Source of the DNA: Octopus sinensis
Taxonomy: Eukaryota
NCBI RefSeq assembly: GCF_006345805.1
Contig: NC_042999.1
Coordinates: 132,742,001 to 132,806,000 of the forward strand
Length of the DNA stretch: 64,000 nucleotides
Direction of reading: 5' to 3'
Positions within the stretch are counted from its first letter, which is position 1. Each line of letters starts with the position of its first letter. The position numbers were made by a program, and so were the translations under genes. Positions 12,540-62,215 of this stretch are shown here, one piece after another. The notes beneath the pieces are model-generated. The model ran no database searches. It saw only the letters and a program-made list of their open reading frames with translations, and was not told the DNA's origin.

Positions 12540-13195
12540 TTTATCTTTTCTTTTACTTGTTCCAGTCACTTGATAGTGGCCATACTGGGGCACCACCTTG
12601 AAGGGTGCTAGTCGGACAAATCGACCCCTCGGGACTTATTCTTTGTAAGCCTAGTACTTATTCTATTGGTCTCTTTCGCCGAACCGCTATGTTACGAGGA
12701 TGTAAACACACCAACACTGCTTGTCAAGCGATGGCGGCAAACAAAGACACACACACACACACACACATTAAAGTACAAGCGAGAATATATAAACCTCTGA
12801 AGGATAGAAATATCCAAGATTAAACTGGTTGAGTACCCTATAATATAGGCATATATAGGGAGAGTTTACGAAAAAAACAAAAGACGAAGACAGGTAGTGT
12901 ACACAACAAACAGATATATTAGTATAACGCCCAGGAATAGAAAAAGTCTTTTACATTTCGAGCCTACGCTTTTCTACAGAAAGGGACACTGAAAAAACAA
13001 AAAACAAGGAGAGAAACAAGGAGAGAAAAAATGTGTGTAGTGGCTAACGAGCTATCATGGCCTATATATGTAGGCATACATATATATATATATATATATA
13101 TATATATACGGCGAGCTTTTTTCAGTTCCCGTCTACCAAGTCCACTCACAAGGCTCAAAGCTATAGTAGAAGACACCCAAGTGGGACTGAACCTG
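12540..13195 (-). mobile_element. SINE family A split by an insertion in its internal microsatellite
   Basis: 3' half 12540-12765, 5' part 13105-13195. Confidence 0.7.
12856..13062 (-). mobile_element. Short Penelope-like element with decayed minimal hammerhead (12948-12983)
   Basis: Minus: CTTT CTGTAGA A AAGC GTAG GCTC GAAA TG TA AAAG; similar layout to 62080-62114; TA-flanked; related fragment at 35810-35885. Confidence 0.5.
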
Positions 13196-13469
13196 AGAAT
13201 CAGTTTTAATATAATCATGAAGGCCACAAAATATTTCAGATTTGATTTGATGAGTGACTTCTATAAATCTTATTTATAGAAGTTCCTTATTTGTGTATTG
13301 CACATATTCATGATGCAAGGTTGCCCGTACACTTCCCGTCGACTTAAATCTACCGGAGATCTGCTTTCATACGTTACACACTTGCTACACATACACACAC
13401 ACCTTTCACACTAGACTACACGTTTCACCAGCACGCTAAAATTACTATTCTACAAATCTTCTATTCTAT

Positions 13470-13750
13470 CTATTCGATTCCTGGACCGGGAGACGGGTTG
13501 TGTTTTTAAGCAAGACACTTCATTTCACGTTTCTCCAGGCCACTCAGCTGGCAGAAATCAGTAATCCTACGGATTTCTATAGCGGGTTAGTGGAATTTAT
13601 ATCACACAATATCCTGGGGGAGACCCTAGCTTCAATGGAAATCAGTTGATCAACCTGTTCAGGAGAACTTTCGGGCCGGAGTATCTGGATAATTCCTGGA
13701 CCGGGAGTTATGCTTTTAAGCAAAACACTTCATTTCACGTTGTTCCATAG
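13470..13750 (+). mobile_element. Two fragments of SINE family D
   Basis: TTCCTGGACCGGGAG...TTAAGCAA(G/A)ACACTTCATTTCACGTT at ~13478 and ~13693; matches 49440-49780. Confidence 0.6.
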
Positions 13751-13924
13751 CCAATTTATAAAATAAAGAAGCTTGCTTCCCATTCACATGATTCAGGGTT
13801 CAGTCTCACTGCGTGGCACCTTGGGCAAGTGTCCTCTACTGTAGTCCGACCAAAGACTTGTGAGTGGATTTGATAGACGGAAACTGAAAGAAACTCGTGT
13901 ATATATATATATATATATATATAT

Positions 13925-14355
13925 ATAAGAAAATTAAAAACGGAAAATACGCACACTTACATGGTTATAGTATAATTTTTAATGTATCGACCGGTTTCGC
14001 AATCGCTATTCATGATACAATGTTTAATTTATATGAAAATATATTTTTTCTTAAGAAGAAAATGGGTCCATGTTGTTTATAATGAGATTCACTCGTGAAT
14101 CTCATTATAAACAACATGGACCCATTTTCACTCGTGAATCTCATTATAAACAACATGGACCCATTTTCTTCTTAAGAAAAAATATATTTTCATATAAATT
14201 AAACATTGTATCATGAATAGTGATTGCGAAACCGGTCGATACATTAAAAATTATACTATAACCATGTAAGTGTGCGTATTTTCCGTTTTTATTTTTCTTA
14301 TATACATTACAATCCACTACGTCGGGACAACCGAAATTCCTCTTTTCTGTTACTA
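13925..14355. mobile_element. Foldback Penelope-like element (~170-bp near-perfect arms) with hammerhead motif in each arm
   Basis: 13925-14092 is the reverse complement of 14134-14303; extra 39-bp duplication at apex; 3' extension to ~14355. Confidence 0.8.
14207..14243 (+). ncRNA. Minimal type I hammerhead-like motif, A3-U8 variant (mirror copy 13983-14019 on minus)
   Basis: TGTATC ATGAATA GTGATTGC GAAA CCGG TC GATACA: 6-bp helix I, short helix II, palindromic ACCGGT helix III, GUC site. Confidence 0.6.
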
Positions 14356-14371
14356 CTACTATATATATATA

Positions 14372-14440
14372 CCAGGTGGTGCTATTAAGTTAGACATGGC
14401 CTGGGCCAATAATGGCCGAAACCTATCAAAGTATCAAAGT
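14372..14440 (+). mobile_element. 70-bp 3' tip of the CR1-like LINE at 49950-50930
   Basis: TGGTGCTATTAAGTTAGACATGGCCTGGGCCAATAATGGCC matches ~50861-50901; ATCAAAGT repeat tail. Confidence 0.75.
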
Positions 14441-14499
14441 ATATATATATATATATATATATATATATATATATATATATATATATACATATATATATA

Positions 14500-58754: not shown

Positions 58755-58890
58755 ACAAATTTTGGCACAAGGTCAGCAATTTCAGGCAAAGTCGACCTCG
58801 ACGGAATTTGAACTCAGAAAGTAATGACGGACGAAATGCCGCTTAGAATTTTGCCCGGCGTGCTAACGATTCTGCCAGTTCGCCGCCTTA
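58755..58890 (-). mobile_element. SINE family B, internally deleted
   Basis: GGCAAAGTCGACCTCGACGGAATTTGAACTCAG...GCCAGTTCGCCGCC. Confidence 0.8.
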
Positions 58891-60979
58891 ACCTGAGGTA
58901 ATATCACCAGTAAACCAGGACTGCTACACAGTTTCTAACCCTACTTGAAGCTATTCCATTTAATTTTATTGATGTTGCTTTTGAAAAAAAACAAAAAAAA
59001 AACGTAAGAGTTCCTACTTTGTTAGAATTTCCACGAATTTCGTTTGTCGTTAAAAGCTCCCCAAATACCTGCTCATTAAACCCATATCATTATCACATTA
59101 GTTCATGCACCACTCCTCGAGTAATCCACCTAAACACGAGTCACACTGACTTTATCCAATTGTCTGCCAACCTAATTTCCAAATAAAGGGGCATATTTGA
59201 TGCTATGACTAACACTTACAGTGAGGCATGCTCGCTTTTATGGGGTGTCAATAAACTGAACTTACTTGATAGATGATTTATAAACGACTTAGATTATTAT
59301 AAACGTCCCGAATATTTATATGTATTGTGATATGATGGAAGTATGACTCACAGACGCTTATGAGATCGTCTGAGTAATTATGTTATCTAGGCATTCTCTG
59401 TATTGCATTAGATTGATGTATATGACCCTCGTTAATGTGGACTTTTCAAATGGGCTAACTATAATCCCCTATACTATCTTCTGTGGGTATTTCGCCATTA
59501 TGAAATTTAGTATATATGTGTGTGTGTATGTGCATATGTTGAATATGTTTGTGCATATGCATGCATGCATAATATATATATATATATATATGGGTATGTA
59601 TGTGTATGTATATGTTTATATTTATATATATATATTGCTATGTGCGTGTGTATATATATATTGATATATGCGTGTATAGATAAATAGAGATAGATATATC
59701 TTTATATATATGTATATATATATAAATGAGTGCGTGTGTGTGTGTGTGTCTGTCTATATTAATTTCTTTTTCCATCTCCCTCCCTTTCTCTCTCTCGTTT
59801 TCTCTCTCCCTCCATACACACACAAACACATACATACACATATAAAGGGAGAAAGAATGAAAGAGAAAGAGAGGGAGAGAGAGAGAAAACGAACGAGTGA
59901 GAGAGAGAGAGGAAAGGAAGAGAAAGGGAGAGTGAGAGAGAGAGAGAGAGAGAGAGTAGTGTGTGTCTATGTGAGTGACTGAGTGAAAGGGAGATAGAGG
60001 TAGATAGATAGATAGAGAGAGAGAGATAGAGAGAGTGTGTGTGTGTGTGTGTGTGTAAGTGATGGAGTGGAGAGTGAGATCTGGACAAATGGGAGTTGGT
60101 TAGGAGGACTGGGTTAATGCAGTTGTGCTTGGCTATGAAGAGATAGAATATGGAGTAGGGAAAAAAAGCTTGAAAACTGTCGTTATACGTCATCTATATA
60201 TTTCATCTGTGCAACAGTCCGATATGTGAACTGGATGGATTCAGTGGCTCGTCGAGGGATGCTCGTCTTCTCATAAGTCATTTCTCTTTTGTTTTTTTTT
60301 TAATAGCAAATGGATAGTTTGCTACGATAAACGTGTTACTGTTGAGAGAGATGTGTAAAGAGATGAATTATTATTTCACCGAGATCTTTTGTATCATATT
60401 CATAGTACGAATATTTATATATATATATATACATACACACACACACAAACACACACACACACCACACACACACACACTCAGACACATATAAAAACACACG
60501 CATAACATGAATATATTGATGTATATGCATATCTATCTATCTATCTATCTATCTGTCTATCTGTTTATCTGTCTATCTGTTTATCTATCTATCTATCTAT
60601 CTATCTATCTATCTATCTATCTATCTATCTATTCTATCTATCTATCTATCTATCTATCTATCTGTAAAATGAGGCACATGTCTATCTATGTATGTAAGTG
60701 TGTATACGCCTGCGTATGAGAATATATATTTGTATTTTTTTAGTGTGTGTATGCTTGTGTATATTGACGATTCAAATTTATATGTACGCTCACCATAGAT
60801 TCACAAGCATGCTCATACACACCTATATATATGTATATATGTACATGCATTTATATATGTTTGCATGTACATACATTTATATATGTCGTTTGCAAATATA
60901 TACGCATGTATGCATATACATATATATGTGTGTGTGTATGTGTGTAAGTGTGTGTGTGTGTGTGTGTGTGTGGTGTGTG

Positions 60980-61350
60980 TGTAGTAAGTAGCTTGCATAC
61001 CAACCACATGGTTCCGGGTTCAGTCTCACTGCGTGGCACAGTGGGAAAGTGTCTACTACTATAGCCTCAGGCCGACCAAAGCTTTGTGAGTGGATTTGGT
61101 AGACGGAAACTGAAAAGAGCCCGGCGTATATATATATGTATATGCTTGTGTGTCTGTGTTTGTGCTCCACCATCGCTTTACAACCGATGTCGGTTTATTT
61201 ACGTCCCTGTAAACTAGCGGTTCGGCAATACAGACCGATAGAATAAGTACTAGGCATTCAAAGAGTAAGCCTTGGGGCTCGATTTGTTCGACTAAAGGTG
61301 GTGCTCCAGCATGGCCGCGGTCAAATGAATGAAACAAGTAAAGGAATAAA
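60980..61350 (+). mobile_element. SINE family A
   Basis: Diagnostic blocks present. Confidence 0.9.
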
Positions 61351-61681
61351 AGTATATATATATATATATATATATATATATATTGCCTTCGAAACACGCC
61401 TGAGTTAACTAGCGACAGCTGATGACGGTGGATTTTTCCTTGTGTAGCTTGTCCTGTACTTGTTTTCTTGTTGTAAAAAAATTTTTTGGATTTTTCCTTG
61501 TGTAGCCTGTCCTGTACTTGTTAAATTTTTGTTTTTCCCGTTTCTACGTCTTGTCGTGGCGTCCTGTACTTACGTATATTTATTTATATATGCATGTATA
61601 GATACATGTAGATGTAGGTACGTACATATATGTTTGTATGTATGCATATATTTTTAATTATCACATATATATATATATAAT

Positions 61682-62010
61682 AAAATATTAGGGAATAAAT
61701 CCAAACTTACAGGGAAACATCAGATTTAGGATTAAATCCAGTTTTATAGTAAAATATATTATATTATATTATATTAAATTAGAGATAAAACCACTATTAG
61801 GCAAATCAAACAATGAAAAACATAAGCCAATACATAAAATTGATTAATTTATATTATTTTAAATATATATCAAAAGTATTAAAAGTTTAGTAAAAGATAA
61901 AGAGTAAAACACTACGATCGTTTCATGGCTGTACAATTCGTAATAATTCGAGTTATGGTTACAGTCAATCTTCAGGTTAATTGAAATATTTATCTTAGCG
62001 AGGTTATATG
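61682..62010 (-). mobile_element. Penelope-like element with hammerhead (61907-61980)
   Basis: Minus: AAC CTGAAGA TTGACTGTA...TACAGCCAT GAAA CGATCG TA GTG; relatives at 51675 and 34165. Confidence 0.65.
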
Positions 62011-62014
62011 TAAC

Positions 62015-62215
62015 CTCGTGAGCACCGCCAGCAATTTTTTCCCTCTGTCTTCCCTTCTCGGGATCTTTCCTTCTCCTTTGTTTCCGACGAAGAGCTCCGC
62101 TCGAAACGTTAAACCCTCCTTCTTCCCTCCTTTCCTGAGCGTCCAATAATACTTTATTTGTTCCACGTCCTCGCGTTGCTGTGTTTTTTTGTGTTTTCTT
62201 GTTTGGATTAACTAT
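62015..62215 (+). mobile_element. Short Penelope-like element with minimal hammerhead (62080-62114)
   Basis: GTTT CCGACGA A GAGC TCC GCTC GAAA CG TT AAAC; ends in (TA)n. Confidence 0.65.

What the first reader, a model, noticed from the sequence alone, without database searches (positions are those of the whole stretch)
12856..62215. A population of short hammerhead-ribozyme foldback elements that target (TA)n
Seen: about 15 short (200-700 bp) inserts from several sequence-unrelated families, most embedded in (TA)n. They carry helixI-C(T/C)GANGA-helixII-GAAA-helixIII-NUH-helixI, complete or partial: 14207, 16003, 17867/17999, 23920, 35072/35499, 44815, 45723, 46504, 54069, 61907, 62080, and decayed at 12948, 14550, 27685, 34315, 57997. 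Many are inverted repeats with the two motifs facing outwards and one arm extended. Established: Penelope-like elements carry minimal type I hammerheads in pseudo-LTRs, which can be inverted and have a 3' tail; non-coding retrozymes also exist. Inference: a dense, diverse ribozyme-bearing retroelement system (about one per 4 kb), either non-autonomous families or extreme 5' truncations, which could cut host intronic transcripts.
Basis: partly seen in the sequence, partly recalled or inferred. Interest (0 to 1): 0.82.

Follow-up and report, generated by a model that had tools for sequence, protein, structure and literature searches.

The report
Penelope retrotransposon stubs with hammerhead motifs
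These short mirror-image inserts are real and carry hammerhead (self-cutting RNA) motifs, but they are most likely the cut-off ends of Penelope-like jumping genes, a known arrangement; the less usual points are one abundant family whose core pair is A-U instead of C-G (cutting untested) and arm layouts suggesting each insert was likely copied twice from RNA.

Summary
Observation partly confirmed. Of 16 named inserts, 6 carry a complete type I hammerhead (8 cores against 0.03-0.42 in shuffles), 4 are near-complete, 4 are truncated or decayed, and 2 (45723, 57997) are unsupported. (TA)n association holds (17 of 21 anchors against 35% background). The inserts look like 5'-truncated ends of Penelope-like elements (PLEs). 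One copy still has a decayed Hydra-type reverse transcriptase upstream of its hammerhead (E 8e-10). Sequencing contigs show a stepwise 5' fall-off and many different central junctions. All 8 listed two-armed inserts have one long and one short arm. In 3 of 3 readable cases neither arm contains the other, which favours two separate cDNAs. Opposite-strand hammerhead pairs 100-700 bp apart (PMC4209133) and (TA)n-targeting octopus Hydra PLEs (PMC8557442) are in print. Host-transcript cutting is unlikely: the fold-back is predicted to bury the motif. New details: a family-wide A3-U8 core (14207) and 42-59-nt stems II. Whether some families are non-coding is unresolved. The scan noted the same features before on other pieces of this genome and in other genomes.

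The parts
13928..14359 (.). Two-armed insert in (TA)n: arms 13928-14099 and 14127-14298 (168/172 identical), 61-nt tail on the right (14299-14359), 39-bp duplication at the centre
14207..14243 (+). Minimal type I hammerhead with A3-U8 core (ATGAATA, 14213-14219), 6-bp stem I, 8-nt stem II, palindromic stem III ACCGGT, predicted cut after C14237; mirror copy 14013-13989 on the minus strand
   Evidence: no other letter at >=10% at 14213 or 14218 in any of the 4 runs laid
14501..14829 (.). Two-armed insert: left arm (minus) keeps stem II, GAAA, ACACGTGT and UA but no core and has the short end; right arm starts about 16 nt 3' of the cut site and has the ~160-nt tail
62880..63025 (+). Tail-only copy of the 14550 family (88.7% identical), between (TA)n runs
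15666..16232 (.). Very young two-armed insert (226/226 aligned bases identical) in (TA)n; complete hammerhead 16003-16054 (+); left copy truncated at C3 (15992); 99-nt tail on the left
17765..18088 (.). Family A copy 1: hammerheads with cores at 17922 (-) and 18004 (+), 31-nt stem II, GUU site; 76-nt tail on the left
46190..46600 (.). Family A copy 2: left arm truncated inside stem II with 69-nt tail; right arm reaches about 170 nt further 5', core at 46509, short end
23671..24010 (-). Single-armed copy between (TA)n runs; complete hammerhead, core 23985, 7-bp stem I, 42-nt stem II
35036..35717 (.). Two-armed insert (224/251 identical); core CTGAAGA at 35154 (-) with a 59-nt stem II; right copy has a mutated core; 95-nt tail on the right
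   Evidence: motif read by eye
27640..27853 (+). Diverged, truncated single-armed relative of 35072 with the long end; GAAA-ACAATTGT-UA only
43776..44720 (+). Decayed Hydra-type PLE ORF: RT 43776-44006 (E 1e-8), thumb 44003-44248 (E 7.6e-10), 44640-44720 (E 7e-4); interrupted at 44250-44580; endonuclease part not detected
44815..44899 (+). Complete hammerhead (CCGAAGA core, 5-bp stem I, 56-nt stem II, ACAGCTGT) about 95 nt after the last ORF remnant
53995..54326 (.). Old two-armed insert (111/138 identical); core CTGACGA at 54148 (-) with a 57-nt stem II and ACGGCCGT; right core mutated; left boundary uncertain
   Evidence: motif read by eye
61680..61990 (-). Single-armed copy with the long end; core CTGAAGA at 61975, 44-nt stem II, stem I reduced to 2 bp
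34164..34407 (-). Truncated relative of 61907 with the short end; no core
51679..52004 (.).
62012..62212 (+). Single-armed copy; minimal hammerhead CCGACGA-A-GAGC/GCTC-GAAA-CG-UU (62080-62114)
12856..13062 (-). Distant relative of 62080 with a mutated core (CTGTAGA)
45594..46167 (.). Old two-armed repeat with a 167-nt one-sided extension; hammerhead not supported (G17, no core on that strand)

Best explanation
The inserts are real, (TA)n-associated, multi-family repeats with minimal type I hammerhead motifs, and they are most likely the 5'-truncated 3' ends (pseudo-LTRs) of Penelope-like retrotransposons, at least partly of the Hydra clade. Likely mechanism (inferred from anatomy plus the in vitro work of PMC11167929): the element's GIY-YIG endonuclease nicks both strands of an AT-rich or (TA)n target. 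Each 3'-OH primes reverse transcription on uncut element RNA at one of two fixed start sites 3' of the hammerhead. Both cDNAs usually stop after 100-300 nt and are joined head to head through short homology or a few untemplated bases. That gives outward-facing motifs, one long and one short arm, and a variable centre. The hammerhead would act on the parent element's own RNA, likely as a dimer through its palindromic stem III or with help from the element protein. In the genomic stubs it is likely a silent passenger.
For: SHOWN: motifs far above shuffles. A profile from 53 Hydra-type ORFs hits 43776-44720 (E 1e-8, 7.6e-10, 7e-4) just 5' of the 44815 motif; all other window hits have E >= 1.4. 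In the marine Hydra-type loci, 8 of 16 with an intact ORF end and >=250 nt downstream have a hammerhead near the stop, 7 of them 84-196 nt after it. Family A: summed depth about 1e6 at the 3' end against 46 for the contig of this locus, falling 783k, 210k, 365k, 143k, 53k going 5'; 15 listed joints (106 more not shown), 11 of them joining a left-arm place 46244-46323 to a right-arm place 46490-46548, often with extra bases; 72 and 50 contigs end in TA at 46255, the short terminus. One long and one short arm in 8 of 8 listed inserts; long ends are shared between copies. In 16003, 14550 and 46504 the short-ended arm reaches further 5' than the tailed arm, so neither can be a DNA copy of the other. 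13 of 14 arms in seven two-armed inserts run 43-217 nt 5' of the predicted cut site and none stops at it (read). 10 of 14 stem III segments are perfect palindromes and 2 more have a single central base. LITERATURE: dual opposite-strand min-HHRs 100-700 bp apart; inverted 5'-truncated copy plus tail; (TA)n preference for nearly all Hydra families including Hydra-1_Obim, whose motif has the same layout as family A; both-strand cleavage and extension, two RT start sites defining the tail, hammerhead not needed for insertion.
Against: An ORF link is shown for 1 of about 10 families only, and that copy lacks the endonuclease. Family A has no ORF hit in the 160 nt available 5' of the core. None of six 11-12-nt window motifs matched an octopus consensus in the Craig supplement; the one hit was a Chara element. 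Tails are 61-167 nt against 30-40 nt in the papers read. No motif folds better than shuffles as a monomer (z -1.46 to +1.22 for 20 segments). Three listed or partly listed family A joints lie at 46300-46301, next to the predicted cut site, so some use of cleaved RNA is not excluded. Contig depth is no true copy number, and part of the 5' fall-off in the 14207 family may be subfamily divergence. In five inserts the two arms stop at nearly the same place, which fold-back priming would also give.
Confidence: 0.78

Rival explanations
1. Some of the families are non-coding, retrozyme-like elements: short RNAs, possibly circular, cut by their hammerhead and inserted in trans by PLE proteins. This can be true together with the best explanation, family by family.
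For: No ORF seen upstream in 9 of about 10 families. 62080 and 12948 align along their 5' parts and have similar lengths. Non-LTR retrozymes as PLE derivatives: bioRxiv 10.64898/2026.07.22.740005 and PMC7229834. Earlier scan notes e1-8807173, e1-8912631 and e1-10346800 report non-coding families in this genome (unchecked).
Against: No head-to-tail tandem of a motif-bearing unit in the window. Motifs are of the minimal PLE type, with no recognisable loop 1-loop 2 contact (by eye). Family A continues 5' beyond the window copy (loose ends at 46348 in 29 and 26 contigs), so no fixed 5' end was seen.
Confidence: 0.3
2. The second arm is made by fold-back (snap-back) priming of a single cDNA, not by a second reverse transcription.
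For: Near-symmetric stop points in five inserts (110/110, 74/75, 217/210, 96/93, 43/57 nt 5' of the cut site) and short palindromes at centres. Self-priming is proposed in PMC3846280.
Against: In 16003, 14550 and 46504 each arm holds sequence the other lacks.
Confidence: 0.15
3. The stubs are functional ribozymes that cut host pre-mRNA.
For: Several motifs are intact. Family sequence is present in two runs guessed to be RNA, which does not show transcription.
Against: Stem I probability 0.00-0.04 in 8 of 8 whole-insert folds against 0.26-0.96 for three isolated motifs. Stem III cannot close as a monomer. Single min-HHRs had no detectable activity. The PAc motif needs protein and no RNA ends were found at its site. 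No host protein domain among 177 ORFs.
Confidence: 0.05
4. They are MITEs or foldback DNA transposons, or chance motifs in AT-rich DNA.
For: Inverted repeats and TA flanks; the relaxed descriptor is matched by shuffles; 45723 and 57997 fail.
Against: Ends are asymmetric, centres vary between copies, single-armed copies exist, an RT remnant is attached, and strict hits are over 100-fold above shuffles.
Confidence: 0.03

Closest known systems
Minimal hammerheads (min-HHRs) of metazoan PLEs, Cervera and De la Pena 2014 (PMC4209133; parts 1-2 of 4 read, two supplement files searched, one not)
   Same: Type I topology, short stem I, palindromic stem III, extra base after A9, high sequence variety, mostly single or opposite-strand pairs 100-700 bp apart read as truncated PLEs; core covariation known (U3-A8).
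   Different: A3-U8 rather than U3-A8 in one family; stems II up to 59 nt; no cephalopod analysis seen there.
Hydra clade of C-terminal-EN PLEs, including Hydra-1_Obim (Craig et al. 2021, PMC8557442; passages, part 2 of the text, section 11, supplement part 2 and searches read)
   Same: (TA)n targets; hammerhead near the 3' end; CTGAAGAG core, 4-bp stem III with a 1-nt centre and U17 as in family A; Hydra-type RT and thumb at 43776-44720.
   Different: Window families are not the published consensus; stems II of 42-59 nt against 10-25 nt in 33 motifs from marine Hydra-type loci; tails 61-167 nt; clade shown for one family only.
PAc (Poseidon of Anolis), PMC11167929 (passages and second part of the main text read)
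   Same: AT-rich target, both strands nicked and extended, two RT start sites giving an optional tail, uncut RNA as template.
   Different: Different clade and host; in PAc the motif overlaps the ORF start, here the one ORF-linked motif follows the ORF; the paper does not analyse head-to-head stubs in the parts read.
Metazoan non-LTR retrozymes (PMC7229834, passages; bioRxiv 10.64898/2026.07.22.740005, parts 1-3 of 5)
   Same: Short, type I hammerhead, probably PLE-mobilised.
   Different: Retrozymes are head-to-tail tandems with circular RNAs; here the copies are inverted or single and variably truncated, and no RNA evidence was obtained.

Membership tests
Type I hammerhead ribozyme (minimal PLE type) | CUGANGA...GAAA...NUH core with stems I-III in C-G-S order | tested here: met
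   6 inserts complete, 4 near-complete; far above shuffles
Type I hammerhead ribozyme (minimal PLE type) | Watson-Crick pair between positions 3 and 8 | tested here: met
   C3-G8 in most; A3-U8 at 14013 and 14213, unvaried at >=10% in 4 runs
Type I hammerhead ribozyme (minimal PLE type) | Palindromic stem III allowing a dimer | tested here: met
   10 of 14 perfect palindromes, 2 with one central base, 2 imperfect
Type I hammerhead ribozyme (minimal PLE type) | Site-specific self-cleavage | not testable with these tools
   needs an in vitro assay; all runs laid were contigs
Rfam hammerhead families | Score above the gathering threshold | tested here: not met
   0 hits; none among 150 of 316 E-value hits shown
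Non-circularly permuted (SGC, CSG, GCS) hammerheads, PMC10085705 | Blocks in non-circular order | tested here: not met
   0 hits of these orders with either core pattern
EN+ Penelope-like elements | Telomerase-like RT upstream of the pLTR | tested here: met
   one insert only, 43776-44720
EN+ Penelope-like elements | GIY-YIG endonuclease | tested here: not met
   no hit to profile positions 545-701 anywhere in the window; the ORF-bearing copy appears internally deleted, so this lowers the claim for this copy, not for the family
EN+ Penelope-like elements | 5' truncation, inverted 5'-truncated copy, optional tail at one end | tested here: met
Hydra clade | Hydra-type RT and thumb sequence | tested here: met
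   the profile was built from loci picked by a Hydra motif seen, and no profile of other clades was run against it
Hydra clade | CxCX5C linker, RWK and DKT motifs, no CCHH | tested here: inconclusive
   these regions are absent from the window copy
Hydra clade | (TA)n insertion preference | tested here: met
   17 of 21 anchors against 35%; shared with Naiad and Neptune, so not diagnostic
Metazoan non-LTR retrozymes | Head-to-tail tandem units each with a hammerhead | tested here: not met
   none in this window; the rest of the genome was not available
Metazoan non-LTR retrozymes | No coding capacity over the full consensus | tested here: inconclusive
   consensi could not be extended; family A continues 5'
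Metazoan non-LTR retrozymes | Abundant circular monomer RNA | not testable with these tools
   contigs only
MITE / foldback DNA transposon | Symmetric terminal inverted repeats and a fixed internal sequence | tested here: not met
   one-sided tails in 8 of 8; variable centres

The most novel reading that the evidence does not exclude
The 14207 family, present at a depth suggesting thousands of copies, uses an active natural A3-U8 hammerhead with a 2-bp stem II that works only as a dimer or with the element protein. Several other families use 42-59-nt stems II that standard searches miss. Some families are non-coding RNAs mobilised by Hydra PLEs. Together the non-nested long and short arms give a genome-wide record that PLEs insert by two reverse transcriptions primed from both target strands at two fixed RNA sites.
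Probability: 0.3. Interest if true: 0.58.

Novelty: new variant of a known kind. Interest (0 to 1): 0.36.

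Why it matters
As a population this is a known kind of repeat and mainly an annotation gain: Rfam misses all of the motifs. Two details are useful to specialists. First, the arm layout makes a testable statement about the unsolved later steps of PLE insertion (two cDNAs against fold-back), and it can be counted in any long-read assembly. 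Second, a family-wide A3-U8 core is a natural test of how far the hammerhead 3-8 pair can be exchanged. A full double-mutant scan of one hammerhead rescued only G3-C8 (PMC9901934), so either this family's motif is weak or dead yet kept, or its context rescues it.

Tried and rejected
No whole genome held, so no consensus building. Rfam at gathering and E-value thresholds gave no hammerhead among the rows shown. Six-order permutation scan, prompted by earlier notes e1-8668970 and e1-8665826: no SGC, CSG or GCS motif here. Relaxed one-mismatch descriptor: not above shuffles, and it missed several real motifs; its hit at 21230 lies just 5' of what I recognise by eye as a mariner-like remnant and was rejected. 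Monomer folding z-scores uninformative. Word-based and phmmer protein searches with the decayed ORF gave nothing or spurious repeat proteins. Pfam found no RT or GIY-YIG in six-frame reads of 7 inserts or in 3 frames at 43700-44820 and no host domain among 177 ORFs. The Hydra motif pattern found nothing in viral contigs. BLASTN of the window against the 122 loci gave only microsatellite hits among the top 30 rows. Conservation of the 14207 motif against its flanks: 1 of 33 against 24 of 168 variable places after dropping the copy's private change at 14221, P 0.09, not significant (counts read by hand; test). No RNA holder on record was listed. The TA-flank table is partly circular because I set boundaries by eye; one search replaces it. 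Three look-ups of earlier findings by sequence and one by place were blank. A3-U8 in print: 'A3-U8' occurred in 0 of the 2 papers returned, 'A3U8' returned 0 papers, and ATGAATA/AUGAAUA was absent from 2 supplement files of PMC4209133. PMC1986816, the paper on exchanges of this pair, is not held and one supplement file was not searched, so absence from print is not established.

Full report
Setting. The window is 36% G+C, rich in microsatellites and old transposon pieces. No genome is held for it. Earlier scan notes call the genome an octopus; that fits my recollection of octopus repeats, but no call of mine names the organism.

Observation. A strict type I descriptor finds 4 cores against 0.03 in 100 block-wise dinucleotide shuffles; with any Watson-Crick 3-8 pair it finds 6 against 0.07. 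A wider span gives 5 strict type I cores against 0.03 in 40 shuffles, and no non-circular permutation. Of the 16 named inserts, 6 are complete (14207, 16003, 17867/17999, 23920, 44815, 62080). Four are near-complete (46504, 61907, and by eye 35072 and 54069). Four are truncated or decayed (12948, 27685, 34315, 14550). Two fail (45723, 57997). A relaxed descriptor is no better than chance (10 against 4.25). Rfam reports none. No motif folds better than shuffles as a monomer. (TA)4 lies within 350 nt 3' of 17 of 21 anchors against 35% of 946 GAAA sites.

Anatomy. All 8 listed two-armed inserts have one arm longer by 61-167 nt (54069 is poorly bounded). The long end is element sequence, not flank: it is shared between copies (17765/46190, 35072/27685, 61907/51679, 14550/62880). 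In run X1 the 14207 tail has summed depth about 35,000, against 46 for a single-locus contig in the same run. Ten of 14 stem III segments are perfect palindromes, as expected for dimer-type motifs. Stems II range from 8 to 59 nt; five are 42 nt or longer, against 10-25 nt in 33 motifs from marine Hydra-type loci.

What they are. I fetched 122 loci with a Hydra-clade motif seen in the Craig supplement and built a profile from 53 ORFs. It hits 43776-44006 (E 1e-8), 44003-44248 (E 7.6e-10) and 44640-44720 (E 7e-4); all other window hits have E >= 1.4. The complete 44815 motif follows about 95 nt later. The endonuclease is missing from this copy. In the marine loci, 8 of 16 evaluable ones have a hammerhead close to the stop codon. 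Contigs of four runs laid on 45590-46597 show family A at about 1e6 summed depth, a stepwise fall 5' of the motif, many different central joints with extra bases, a second 3' end running into TA at 46255, and a continuation beyond the 5' end of the window copy. Depth is not a copy number, so 'order of 10^4 copies' is rough. This is the pattern of variable 5' truncation, not of a MITE with a fixed centre. An ORF link is shown for one family only; for the others a non-coding origin stays open.

How it likely works. PMC11167929 shows in vitro that a PLE protein nicks and extends both strands of AT-rich DNA, starts reverse transcription at two sites that bound the 'tail', and does not need hammerhead cleavage. 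The window fits this (inference). Each insert has one long and one short end. Thirteen of 14 arms in seven inserts run 43-217 nt 5' of the predicted cut site and none stops at it, so the template was uncut or re-joined. In 16003, 14550 and 46504 the short-ended arm reaches further 5' than the tailed arm; neither contains the other, so simple fold-back copying cannot make them. In the other five inserts the orientation of the centre could not be read or was confused by duplications. Against this: five inserts have near-symmetric stop points, and three family A joints lie next to the cut site. The joining step itself is inferred.

Host effect. Stem I has probability 0.00-0.04 in all 8 whole-insert folds, against 0.26-0.96 for three isolated motifs. 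Single min-HHRs had no detectable activity. No host domain was found among 177 ORFs, so an intronic location is not shown. Long dsRNA from the young fold-backs is a more plausible effect than cutting (inference).

The A3-U8 family. Both arms of 14207 read ATGAATA. In three DNA runs and one run guessed to be RNA, no other letter reaches 10% at 14213 or 14218 (X1 depth about 78,000 at 14217); 14221 reads C in about 98%, so the family stem II is GC-GAUW-GC. Stem I variants at 14208 (G/A) and 14242 (C/T) are compatible with pairing, but linkage was not tested. Conservation against flanks is not significant (P 0.09). Natural U3-A8 is in print; G3-C8 occurs in locus L008. I did not find A3-U8, but the key paper is not held. 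A double-mutant scan of one hammerhead rescued only G3-C8, which counts against strong activity.

Comparison with what is known. PMC4209133 describes dual opposite-strand min-HHRs 100-700 bp apart as probable truncated PLEs. PMC8557442 describes the inverted truncated copy, the tail and (TA)n-targeting Hydra elements including one from Octopus bimaculoides. PMC3846280 describes head-to-head pLTRs (passages). PMC6962438 counts 235 hammerhead matches in giant squid (passages). Retrozymes differ by being tandem. PMC10085705 (parts 1 and 3 of 8) defined the permutation test. PMC3088659, PMC3884650 and PMC9901934 were seen as passages. bioRxiv supplements are closed; they could hold family lists bearing on the retrozyme rival.

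Verdict. Real, mostly as described, and a known kind of system with new variant details. The scan has noted the two-armed layout, long stems and A3-U8 cores before; these notes gave leads and are not counted as support. Interest 0.36.

Noticed in passing
window 7200-9300 (+), between (AAT)n at 6897-7128 and (ATA)n at 9370-9452: Decayed non-LTR retrotransposon with RT-like, zinc-knuckle (zf-RVT E 0.018) and restriction-like endonuclease sequence; by recall an R4/Dong-type element, a group that targets (TAA)n.
   Followed up: partly
window 14372-14432 and 50856-50916: A 60-bp piece of an extremely abundant repeat (summed depth up to 2.3e6 in run X1) with GGCC-loop-GGCC-GAAAC; no hammerhead core; identity unknown.
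   Followed up: partly
window 19164-20038: 875-bp fold-back with nearly symmetric ends (285/371 identical) and no convincing hammerhead; more like a DNA-transposon derivative.
   Followed up: partly
window 21050-21900 and 52373-52564: Mariner/Tc1-like transposase remnants (by eye at 21556-21894; HTH_28 and Sleeping Beauty HTH hits at 52373).
   Followed up: no
window 37615-37884 (+): ORF resembling a Helitron Rep segment (recalled; no Pfam hit).
   Followed up: no
window 49950-50840 (+), 30908-31650 (-), 40110-40680 (+): LINE RT and ORF1-like remnants, recognised by eye only.
   Followed up: no
window 44296-44340: A common SINE-like tail (recalled) and further sequence interrupt the Hydra-type ORF between its thumb segments.
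   Followed up: no
L008, 2307 nt before and 196 nt after the ORF stop: A Hydra-type element with a G3-C8 core (GTGATCA) in both direct repeats and a third hammerhead on the opposite strand.
   Followed up: no
L001:2-2323 and L002: Hydra-type animal retrotransposon sequence with hammerheads inside two bacterial genome assemblies; probably host contamination.
   Followed up: no
window 57837-57936: A 100-N assembly gap just 5' of the unsupported 57997 site.
   Followed up: yes
window 45942-46161: The right part of the 45723 insert is a multi-copy family (depth 2,000-44,000 in X1) while its left part is near single-copy depth.
   Followed up: partly
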